Below are positions 60,724 through 63,338 of a stretch of DNA of 64,000 nt, piece by piece (the stretch's first letter is position 1; the number at the start of each line of letters is the position of its first letter). Under the pieces are notes generated by a model. It did not search any database and was not told where the DNA came from. It saw only the letters and a list, made by a program, of their open reading frames with translations. The DNA lies in NCBI RefSeq assembly GCF_006345805.1, contig NC_043014.1, positions 10,602,001 through 10,666,000 of the forward strand, in the 5' to 3' direction. The stretch is from Octopus sinensis. Lineage: Eukaryota. The position numbers and the translations under genes are program-made.

Positions 60724-61465
60724 ATATACACACACACAAGTGAGAGGACAAACGAAAGGAGGAGGTTCAACACATTTATTGGGAGTCACATGTATAGGTC
60801 AAAACAGTTTTATTCAAATTCGTTGGTACTCTGAGTTTCAAGCGTGATGCTAATCATTAGCCATTGCGTGAGTGCGTGTATGTTGCTTGCATGCGTACGA
60901 TGGGCTTCCGAACTGTTTTCGTTTACCAAATTCACAAGGTATTAGACAACCCGGGCATACATTAGAGAACATTTATCCAAAATGCCGCGCTTTTGTACTG
61001 AACTCGGAAACACGAGTTTACAAAGAGAGCTTCTTAACCACTCAGTCACGAAGCTATGTATGCACCTACTGGTTTCTGCGCAAGAGTTTGTTGGCTTTTC
61101 TTTGAATTTCACCTTTGAACAAGTACAACACCTGTTACGTACTAAGTTATTGGTATTTGTACTGGAAGAGATTTTTTCTGTTTACAAATTTCATCATTCA
61201 TCCGGTGTTCTAGCTATGACCGACTTGTTTTGTTTTCTGTACCTGATATGTTTGTTCAACATATTTATCTATTTTCCAGACGGTGGACATGACTCTAGCT
61301 CATGGGGTGTGGTGGGGTGACGGGTGATGGTACACTCCGTGAGGCGCTTTTATGGGAGCGGCACTATTGGGTCTGCTTTATAGGTCTCTGTAGGAGACAG
61401 GGACAGGAGATTCAAGGATGTCTCTGTACTCGAGTGAGATTTAGTTCGGTAATTAATCGAAGAGG

Positions 61466-61975
61466 TGGAGGCGCGTGGTTTAGTGGTTAGGGTGTCAGCA
61501 TCATGACCGTAAGATTGTGGTTTCGATTCCTGGACCGAGCGACGCGTTGTGTTCTTGAGCAAAACACTTCATTTCACGTTGCTCCAGACCACTCAGCTGG
61601 CAAAAATTAGTAACGCTGCGTTGGACTGGCATCCCGTCCAGCTGGGGAACATATATGCCATAGAAACCGGGAAACCGGGCCCACGAGCCTGGCTACGCTT
61701 TAAAAGGGCGCATTTATTTATTTGTGGAGGCGCGTGGCTTAGTGGTTAGGGTGTCAGCATCATGATCGTAAGATTGTGGTTTCGATTCCTGGACCGTGCG
61801 ACGCGTTGTGCTCTTGAGCAAAACACTTCATTTCATGTTGCTGCAGTCCACTCAGCTGGCAAAAATGAGTGACGCTGCGATGGACCGACGTCCCGTCCAG
61901 CTGGGGAACACATACGCCATTGAAACCAGGAAACCGGGCCCATGAGCCTGGCTTTAAAAAGGTGCATTTATTTAT
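61466..61975 (+). mobile_element. Tandem dimer of tRNA-derived SINE
   Basis: GTGGAGGCGCGTGG.TTAGTGGTTAGGG heads at ~61465 and ~61723, each ending in (ATTT)n. Confidence 0.85.
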
Positions 61976-62565
61976 TTTTATTTTTATTTAATCGAAGAGA
62001 GGCCGCACCGGGAATCCAATGTGTTCGTCATTGGCGTGTCTGACATAACAGCATTCAAGCAACTCTTTTTTGTTTGCATGTTTTTAGCGTGTTTACCAGC
62101 CACATGCCCTCAGTAATTACTGAGGGCGGGCAGTTGGTGACCTTTATGTCATAAAACACACACGCACACACACACACACACGTACTGAAAGAACTCAGAA
62201 ACAGATCAGAGTGTTCAGCTATGCGCCGAGAAAAGCAGTTCTCATGGTTTAGTGGTTGCGTAAAATAGACACCGTCAAATGACACAAATCAGTTTCGAAT
62301 CCAGCAATATATGTGTGTGTGTGTTGTGTGTGTGTGTGTGTGTATGTATGCGTGTGCGTGTGTGTGTGTAAAGAGAGAGAGAGAGAAAAAAAAAGAGAGA
62401 GAGAGAGAAAGACAGACAGACAGACAGAGAAAATTATAATTAAGGGTACCGAAGAGATACCACCTTGCCAGAAATAGCAGTCAAAACCTGACTCTAAAAC
62501 CACATCAAGTATTTATTTACATTATTTACATTCGACGGATATTTGTCCTCATCTTGTTTGTTGTC

Positions 62566-62611
62566 AACACAACGTTTCGGTTGATATACCCTCCAGCCTT
62601 CTTCAGGTATC
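62566..62611 (-). ncRNA. Minimal type I hammerhead (family 1)
   Basis: GAUAC-CUGAAGA-AGGCUG..CAACC-GAAACGUU-GUGUU. Confidence 0.7.
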
Positions 62612-62922
62612 TTGATGTAATGGATCCTCTCACGGACGATGGCATGTCCTGTCCTTTCGTTTATTCTTTTAGTTTTATGTAAATCGACTAGTGTCATTAT
62701 ATTCAAGCTAGGCGGTATTAGCTTTGAGTCTCTACATCTACATAAGAAAGTCAGATGGTTTGAAAGACGAGCTCGTTTTTGAAGAAGTTTCTCTATATGT
62801 CTCCATTGAAGTCTCATGTCGACTCCGTACCGATTAGATAATACAGTTCTATATTTAAGAGATGAGGAATTATTTACATTATTTACATTCGACGGATATT
62901 TGTCCTCATCTTGTTTGTTGTT

Positions 62923-62968
62923 AACACAACGTTTCGGCTGGTATACCCTCCAGCTTTCTTCAGGTGTC
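62923..62968 (-). ncRNA. Minimal type I hammerhead (family 1)
   Basis: GACAC-CUGAAGA-AAGCUG..CAGCC-GAAACGUU-GUGUU. Confidence 0.7.
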
Positions 62969-63197
62969 GAATATAAATGATGTAAATAATGTACATAATT
63001 CCTCATCTCTTAAATATAGAAAAGTATTTATTTGTTCTTTTATCTTTTCACCTGTGGTTTTAGAGTCAGGCTTTGACTGCTATTTCTAGCATGGTGTTAT
63101 CTCTTAATCATAATTTTAATAATAATTATTATATAAGGTTTATTTTTCCATACTGGCCACTTGATATGATCGCTATTTTAAATTATGGTCCTATCGT

Positions 63198-63338
63198 CTT
63201 AGGAATGAAAACCCAGGTTCGAAATTTCCCCAAGACACCTGATGAGGGCAGGTGGGTATATCAGCCGAAACATTGTGTTGACAACAAACACGATGAAGAC
63301 AAATATCCGTCGAATCTAAATAATGTAAATAATGTAAA
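63198..63338 (+). mobile_element. PLE family-1 pseudo-LTR with degenerate hammerhead (63234-63279)
   Basis: GACAC-CUGAUGA..CAGCC-GAAACAUU-GUGUU. Confidence 0.7.

What the first reader, a model, noticed from the sequence alone, without database searches (positions are those of the whole stretch)
62507..63033. TSD-flanked mini-Penelope with two tandem hammerheads 357 nt apart (retrozyme-like)
Seen: inverted pLTR stub, HHR-pLTR, ~235 nt of PLE ORF start and a second HHR-pLTR, all inside a 12-bp TSD; both cores are CUGAAGA with palindromic AACGUU. Known: tandem minimal HHRs pair through this palindrome and cleave as dimers, and animal non-LTR retrozymes release monomers of a few hundred nt that circularise. 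Inference: a 357-nt monomer, exactly 119 codons, whose tracked frame (62494-63006) is stop-free across the whole unit, so a circle would be an endless ORF. This may capture a retrozyme arising from a PLE. Each helix II has one mismatch and the site is GUU, so this copy may be weak.
Basis: partly seen in the sequence, partly recalled or inferred. Interest (0 to 1): 0.8.

Follow-up and report, generated by a model that had tools for sequence, protein, structure and literature searches.

The report
One-off deleted Penelope copy, two hammerheads
This is a single, internally deleted copy of an old, very abundant jumping gene (a Penelope-like retrotransposon) whose two self-cutting RNA motifs likely came to lie 357 bases apart by a copying accident, so the locus is ordinary, while the parent family's tRNA-like start, likely a promoter, is the part worth testing.

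Summary
The anatomy is real: on the minus strand an inverted stub, two minimal hammerheads with cleavage sites 357 nt apart, a 12-bp target duplication and an open frame. The retrozyme reading is not supported. The junction occurs once in the 2.72-Gb genome, against over 3,000 exact hammerhead matches. Other two-hammerhead loci have different junctions and spacings of 154-1,829 nt. Inverted stubs and 9-15-bp duplications are normal for this family and in print for Penelope elements. The 'endless ORF' is inherited: the family's ORF runs through the hammerhead, also in a distant relative, and another locus gives a stop-free 294-nt unit. Both hammerheads here carry helix II mismatches, and the copy lacks the family's likely promoter. 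Side result outside the window: the family's terminal repeat begins with a tRNA-like A/B-box segment 25 nt after the ORF stop, and 70 of 90 sampled copies have their 5' end there. This suggests a Pol III promoter in a coding Penelope element; it is untested.

The parts
63022..63033 (.). Target-site duplication, copy at the element's 5' side (12 bp)
   Evidence: 9-15-bp duplications in 22 of 34 comparable family insertions vs 7 of 300 mismatched controls
62966..63021 (+). Inverted pLTR stub; ends at the family's second preferred 3' end ('tail')
   Evidence: other-run contigs also break at 63021 (table 7)
62923..62968 (-). Minimal type I hammerhead 1: core 62963-62957, helix II 62955-62936 with an A.C closing mismatch, GAAACGUU 62935-62928, predicted cut after 62928
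62616..62927 (-). pLTR tail and 5' part of the PLE ORF; the 245 nt next to the junction are 78-90% identical to 28 family copies
62615..62616 (-). Unique junction: ORF position +311 joined to the pLTR 44 nt upstream of the second cleavage site
62566..62611 (-). Minimal type I hammerhead 2: core 62606-62600, helix II 62598-62579 with a C.A mismatch, GAAACGUU 62578-62571, predicted cut after 62571
62513..62570 (-). 3' tail ending at +57, the family's commonest 3' end (mode +59)
62507..62518 (.). Target-site duplication, copy at the element's 3' side; overlaps the tail by 6 letters
62571..62927 (-). Hypothetical 357-nt cleavage monomer (119 codons, 37% GC, circular fold no better than shuffles)
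62494..63006 (-). 170-aa open frame: PLE N-terminus read through both hammerheads; its ATG lies in the inverted stub
62452..62504 (.). Left arm of the host palindrome (another abundant repeat) into which the element inserted
63053..63105 (.). Right arm of the host palindrome (92% complementary to the left arm)
63198..63336 (+). Separate truncated pLTR fragment of the same family, opposite strand, palindrome broken

Best explanation
This is a single-copy, internally deleted insertion of a Penelope-like retrotransposon, and it likely arose in one faulty reverse-transcription event rather than from a circular RNA. Inferred steps: the element's endonuclease made a staggered cut in an AT-rich target (12-bp duplication); reverse transcription began in the pLTR tail at 62513, ran through hammerhead 2, then jumped to a point 311 nt into the ORF of the same or another RNA (or that stretch was deleted later), and ran on through hammerhead 1; the other target end primed a short copy from the second tail site, giving the inverted stub. 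Shown: the anatomy, the uniqueness of the junction, the family's preferred 3' ends, and the frame running through the hammerhead. The copy lacks the family's tRNA-like head, so it would be transcribed only by read-through, and would likely self-cleave poorly or not at all.
For: Junction seen once genome-wide (a sister copy 10% diverged would be seen with probability 0.59, five copies missed with probability 0.011; one search agrees). Family: 3,177 and 4,310 exact matches to two motifs; RT domain PF00078; longest open frame 551 aa among 150 RT hits. In 90 position-ordered tail copies: 49 end by +70 and 40 at +71..+100; 36 have an inverted upstream copy; 1 has a direct second copy within 700 nt. 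22 direct hammerhead pairs in 213 loci span 154-1,829 nt with different junctions. Duplications of 9-15 bp in 22 of 34. The same layout, including an internally deleted derivative with inverted pLTRs and a 10-bp TSD, is described in PMC3846280 (passages). Two internal RT start sites and uncut RNA as the main template: PMC11167929 (parts 1-2). Only 4 of 90 copies start within +3..-2 of the cleavage site. The dimer fold costs 26.8 kcal/mol against 14.8 and 16.3 for two pairs with intact helices.
Against: 11 of 22 direct pairs have lengths divisible by three (7.3 expected, P = 0.079), though five pairs come from one locus and two share a junction. The two hammerhead copies differ at 5 of 99 positions, which fits either age or two templates. 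Template jump and later deletion cannot be told apart; no clear microhomology at the junction. Self-cleavage was not assayed; all core nucleotides and helix I are intact. The 213 loci were fetched partly by likeness to this unit, so pair counts are not genome rates.
Confidence: 0.85

Rival explanations
1. A nascent retrozyme: read-through RNA folds the two hammerheads as a dimer, releases a 357-nt monomer that is circularised, but the element has not (yet) spread.
For: Both cores, both helix I pairings and the ACGU palindrome are compatible with a nested dimer. The size matches animal retrozymes of about 170-400 nt, including mussel units of 350-390 bp (PMC7229834 passages). Retrozymes are proposed to derive from pLTRs (bioRxiv 10.64898/2026.07.22.740005, parts 1-3).
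Against: Single copy; only 104 of 357 nt are repeated and TRF calls no such array. HHR1 has lost the G10.1-C11.1 pair that PMC4209133 calls highly conserved; minimal PLE hammerheads cleave poorly even as dimers; 8 of 9 Xenopus dimers did not cleave. No promoter of its own.
Confidence: 0.1
2. The circle is a selected endless ORF translated by rolling circle.
For: 357 = 119 codons; one frame is stop-free with two in-frame ATGs. Mild excess of 3n spacings (11 of 22).
Against: The frame is the parent's own N-terminal ORF, open across the hammerhead in most family copies shown and 43% identical over 123 aa to a full-length 847-aa relative, including the hammerhead-coded residues. A different junction (L251, 294 nt) is also 3n and stop-free. 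Single copy, so no selection can be read.
Confidence: 0.03
3. The 12-bp repeat is not a target duplication but a coincidence of AT-rich microhomologies, and the pieces are separate insertions.
For: Six letters are shared with the tail and most of the rest with the host arms; only 4-5 letters need duplication.
Against: Stub-plus-tail insertions of this family carry 9-15-bp duplications in 22 of 34 cases vs 7 of 300 controls; both ends fall on the family's two preferred 3' ends.
Confidence: 0.1

Closest known systems
Endonuclease-containing Penelope-like elements with two direct pLTRs plus an inverted pLTR and tail (Arkhipova et al. 2013, PMC3846280, passages; Craig et al. 2021, PMC8557442, passages)
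   Same: Direct pLTRs, inverted 5' pLTR, optional tail, short TSD, pLTR overlapping the ORF start, internally deleted derivatives.
   Different: Nearly the whole ORF and 3' UTR are missing, so the pLTR hammerheads are 357 nt apart; the parent's pLTR starts with a tRNA-like segment.
Minimal hammerheads of metazoan PLEs (Cervera and De la Pena 2014, PMC4209133, parts 1-2 of 4)
   Same: Type I, no real helix III, palindromic ACGU, unpaired nucleotide between 9 and 10.1, long helix II.
   Different: This copy has mismatches in both helices II; the site is GUU.
Poseidon of Anolis, PAc (Frangieh et al. 2024, PMC11167929, parts 1-2 of 4)
   Same: Hammerhead overlaps the ORF start; two internal RT start sites match the two 3'-end clusters; AT-rich targets; few ends at the cleavage site.
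   Different: Here the open frame begins upstream of the hammerhead and reads through it; the family looks old, with no intact ORF among 150 RT hits.
Animal non-LTR retrozymes (Cervera and de la Pena 2020, PMC7229834, passages; Li et al. 2026 preprint, parts 1-3 of 5)
   Same: Two type I hammerheads in tandem at a few hundred nt, low GC, long TSD, PLE kinship.
   Different: One copy, 1.3 units, ORF-derived sequence, minimal rather than canonical hammerheads, no RNA evidence.
Schistosome Sm-alpha / Sj-alpha SINE-like elements (review PMC6765202, passages) and TRIMp3 elements Cassandra, Helenus, Ajax (PMC10886601, passages)
   Same: For the parent family only: a small-RNA-derived likely Pol III promoter ahead of a hammerhead, or inside a terminal repeat.
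   Different: Those elements are non-coding; here the module is part of the pLTR of an RT-coding PLE. The window copy itself lacks it.

Membership tests
Penelope-like element (EN+) | Family ORF with PLE-type reverse transcriptase | tested here: met
   PF00078 at E 1.3e-9 in L030, which starts with the same hammerhead and ORF 5' part; relatives are single-ORF RT proteins up to about 850-930 aa
Penelope-like element (EN+) | C-terminal GIY-YIG endonuclease | tested here: inconclusive
   3 of 120 listed relatives carry PF01541; the family was not among the 30 PF01541 loci clustered; its C-terminus was not scanned directly
Penelope-like element (EN+) | pLTRs with minimal hammerhead, direct and inverted, with tail | tested here: met
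Penelope-like element (EN+) | Short target-site duplication | tested here: met
   12 bp here; 22 of 34 family insertions
Penelope/Poseidon clade | RT phylogeny places it in the clade | not tested
   No tree built; the label is recalled from N-terminal motif likeness
Non-LTR retrozyme | Tandem repeat of at least two full hammerhead-bearing units | tested here: not met
   Two hammerheads, but only 104 of 357 nt repeated; no TRF array
Non-LTR retrozyme | Multi-copy family sharing one monomer | tested here: not met
   Junction unique; other pairs differ
Non-LTR retrozyme | Non-coding sequence | tested here: not met
   The unit is the PLE ORF's 5' end
Non-LTR retrozyme | Self-cleavage and circular RNA in tissue | not testable with these tools
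   Only contigs were available
Pol III-driven (SINE-type) head in the parent pLTR | tRNA-like segment with A and B boxes at the 5' end of copies | tested here: met
   Alignment scores 53-59 to 37 genomic tRNAs vs shuffle maxima 41-43.5; 70 of 90 5' ends at or inside the segment's start. ARAGORN (9 loci) and Rfam (1 locus) do not call it a tRNA
Pol III-driven (SINE-type) head in the parent pLTR | Transcription by RNA polymerase III | not testable with these tools
   Only indirect: T-run scarcity, weakened by controls

The most novel reading that the evidence does not exclude
The parent is a protein-coding Penelope-like element that has captured a tRNA-derived Pol III promoter as the start of its pseudo-LTR: most templates for its reverse transcriptase begin there, its thousands of solo ends act as PLE-dependent, hammerhead-bearing SINEs (like schistosome Sm-alpha), and short two-hammerhead units such as this 357-nt one are repeated, mostly failed, births of retrozymes.
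Probability: 0.3. Interest if true: 0.7.

Novelty: new member of a known kind. Interest (0 to 1): 0.27.

Why it matters
The locus itself is ordinary and shows how easily a two-hammerhead, 3n, stop-free unit arises from a PLE whose ORF runs through its ribozyme: such units should not be called retrozymes without copy-number or RNA evidence. The family is more useful. It offers many natural two-hammerhead spacings for testing how far apart PLE hammerheads can act as dimers. If its tRNA-like head is a working Pol III promoter, it would be a coding retrotransposon with a SINE-type promoter and a concrete link between PLEs and Sm-alpha-like hammerhead SINEs. I did not find this described (paper searches; Repbase, Dfam and subscription journals were not searchable).

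Tried and rejected
Rfam at gathering score: nothing in the window; E-value scan of L049: no tRNA or hammerhead. ARAGORN: no tRNA gene in 9 loci. Pfam on the 170-aa frame: nothing significant. RNA: no RNA holder listed; 4 of 24 runs laid, all contigs (X2, X4, X10, X15); no listed piece bridges the junction and the tables were cut, so this is no evidence on expression. One X2 contig matches 62999-63106 without differences but has only 23 letters on the stub side, under the tool's 31-letter rule, so it does not prove the insertion is shared; no empty site was seen. Fossil signal of cleavage: 4 of 90 5' ends at +3..-2, hazard 0.0067/nt at +2..-2 against 0.002-0.006 elsewhere, not convincing (the 3'-end column of that call was faulty and was redone). 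T-run scarcity as proof of Pol III: 6 runs of four or more T in 21,746 nt of 20 non-independent segments vs 25 and 45 expected, and 9 in 2,097 and 6 in 1,791 nt in another PLE family of like composition, but 12 of 80 metagenome relatives also have none and lack A/B boxes: weak. An intron over the 9-nt repeats was considered by eye and dropped, as the frame is open without it. The MFE of the transcript does not form the dimer; such folding omits tertiary contacts. Lunse et al. 2017 is not held; it is cited only through PMC6765202. PMC2377424: abstract only. Earlier-findings look-ups by sequence, by place and one by words were empty. No supplements were read.

Full report
Observation. The described parts are present on the minus strand. 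Two minimal type I hammerheads have cores at 62963 and 62606, an extra A, a 20-nt helix II and GAAACGUU; the predicted cuts after 62928 and 62571 are 357 nt apart. Each helix II has one mismatch. A 56-nt inverted stub (62966-63021) precedes them, a 12-mer occurs at 62507 and 63022, and the frame 63006-62494 is open for 170 aa. The insertion sits at the centre of a palindrome of another abundant repeat. The genome G000 has 2.72 Gb in 13,516 contigs; that it is an octopus is my guess from memory, and no call names it.

The family. The unit belongs to a large, old PLE family: 3,177 exact matches to a 28-letter hammerhead motif, 4,310 to a tail motif, RT domain PF00078, and no open frame above 551 aa among 150 RT hits. 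The window's ORF piece is 78-90% identical to 28 other copies. Most of the 30 loci fetched for the 541-nt query continue into the ORF where the window copy breaks off. In 90 tail copies taken in order along contig 1, 49 end by +70 after the cleavage site (mode +59), 40 at +71 to +100 and 1 beyond; 36 have an inverted copy upstream and 1 has a direct second copy within 700 nt. The window's 3' end (+57) and stub end match these two clusters, as expected from the two internal RT start sites reported for Anolis Poseidon (PMC11167929, parts 1-2). Stub-plus-tail insertions carry 9-15-bp duplications in 22 of 34 cases against 7 of 300 controls. The layout is the typical Penelope structure of PMC3846280 (passages).

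Retrozyme test. The junction (62616|62615) was found once with up to two mismatches, and only the window spans a junction-centred query among 40 of 59 candidates scored (the four next-best hits are ordinary pLTRs). At 10% divergence five sister copies would all be missed with probability 0.011. Among 213 loci, partly selected for likeness to this unit, 22 direct hammerhead pairs span 154-1,829 nt with different breakpoints, apart from local duplicates. Short two-hammerhead units are thus recurrent accidents, and I found none amplified. Only 4 of 90 copies begin near the cleavage site, so uncut RNA was likely the usual template. HHR1 has lost the conserved G10.1-C11.1 pair, and forcing the dimer costs 26.8 kcal/mol against 14.8 and 16.3 for two pairs with intact helices. 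Minimal PLE hammerheads cleave poorly even as dimers (PMC4209133, parts 1-2), and 8 of 9 Xenopus dimers did not cleave (bioRxiv 2026.07.22.740005, part 3). Expression could not be judged from contigs.

Endless ORF. The family's frame is open from an ATG upstream of the hammerhead into the conserved N-terminus in most of the 16 copies translated. A full-length 847-aa relative aligns at 43% over 123 aa, including the hammerhead-coded residues. Any in-frame junction therefore gives a stop-free circle until mutations close it; L251 (294 nt) is a second case. Against my reading, 11 of 22 spacings are multiples of three (P = 0.079), but five come from one locus.

Mechanism. Shown: anatomy, uniqueness, family end preferences. 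Inferred: staggered endonuclease cut, priming at the first tail site, a template jump (or later deletion) from 44 nt upstream of the cleavage site to ORF position +311, truncation just upstream of hammerhead 1, and a short second-end product forming the inverted stub. The copy has no promoter of its own.

Side result, outside the window. In 13 of 20 RT-bearing loci the ORF end is followed by a tRNA-like segment, and in 12 of these by the hammerhead after an (AAT)n tract; the segment starts about 25 nt after the stop codon. A 22-letter motif in it has 2,790 exact matches. It aligns to 37 genomic tRNAs at 53-59 against shuffle maxima of 41-43.5, without a clear single parent; ARAGORN and Rfam do not call it. 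Of 90 sampled copies (87 distinct), 70 have their 5' end 12-50 nt upstream of that motif, peaking at the tRNA-like 5' end: 0.060 ends per nt there against 0.004 further upstream. 21 of 87 have an inverted head joined at that point, and 72 of 90 show PLE sequence downstream by pattern. Among tail copies, 46 of 90 have the head and only 11 of these continue into the ORF end. This fits an RNA start at an internal Pol III promoter; a reverse-transcriptase stop or fold-back at a small hairpin there is the rival. T-runs are scarce on the sense strand compared with another PLE family in the genome, but 12 of 80 distant relatives share that trait without A/B boxes, and 0 of 34 with a 3' flank show an A/B pair. 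The nearest published cases are the non-coding Sm-alpha elements (PMC6765202, passages) and TRIMp3 elements (PMC10886601, passages); Drosophila Penelope has a LINE-like internal promoter (PMC2377424, abstract). Two papers on octopus repeats (PMC13282606, PMC8967140; passages) did not mention such a structure in the passages seen; their supplements and repeat libraries, which I did not see, may.

Earlier scan notes (unchecked) reached the same verdict for hammerhead pairs in other genomes and report tRNA-bearing PLE-type repeats elsewhere; they are leads, not support.

Verdict. Observation confirmed; retrozyme and endless-ORF readings not supported; a new member of a known kind, interest 0.27. 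The tRNA-like pLTR start of the parent family is the most novel reading left open (probability 0.3, interest 0.7 if true).

Noticed in passing
L079:2580-2816, L088 (reverse strand), L053, L063; not in the window: The parent PLE's pLTR starts with a tRNA-like A/B-box segment about 25 nt after the ORF stop, followed by (AAT)n and the hammerhead; 70 of 90 sampled copies begin at this segment. Likely an internal Pol III promoter.
   Followed up: yes
L227, L233, L241, L250, L166, L024: Several internal junctions join the ORF's 5' part to the start of the tRNA-like head (five loci) or to the cleavage site (L024), as end-to-end template jumps from an RNA 5' end would; L166 has extra A letters at the joint.
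   Followed up: partly
L251:972-3317: A cluster with several hammerhead copies in direct and inverted order; one 294-nt unit is 3n and stop-free, its 285-nt mirror copy is not.
   Followed up: partly
window 62452-62504 and 63053-63105; L032-L042: The host repeat forms palindromes with variable centres at many loci, and L036 shows a CTGATGA motif further in: probably the end of a second PLE family. L035 holds a stub of the finding's family in the same host repeat.
   Followed up: partly
window 30917-31072, 32943-33010, 33493-33741, 63198-63336: Further truncated pLTR fragments of the same family, one as an inverted pair.
   Followed up: partly
L258, L259 and hits: A different, younger GIY-YIG PLE family with several open frames of about 780 aa; used only as a control.
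   Followed up: partly
P0002-P0037: Unnamed proteins 61-76% identical to this family's RT on public contigs of 1-620 kb, much closer than named insect or echinoderm relatives (44-51%); related hosts or horizontal transfer, not examined.
   Followed up: no
window 61465-61694 and 61724-61953: Two tandem copies (92%) of a 230-nt repeat with a tRNA-like head, probably a SINE.
   Followed up: no
window 47399, 47840, 48281: CTGACGA recurs at 441-nt spacing on the minus strand, probably a tandem repeat; a roughly 530-nt tandem repeat also lies at about 41100-42900.
   Followed up: no
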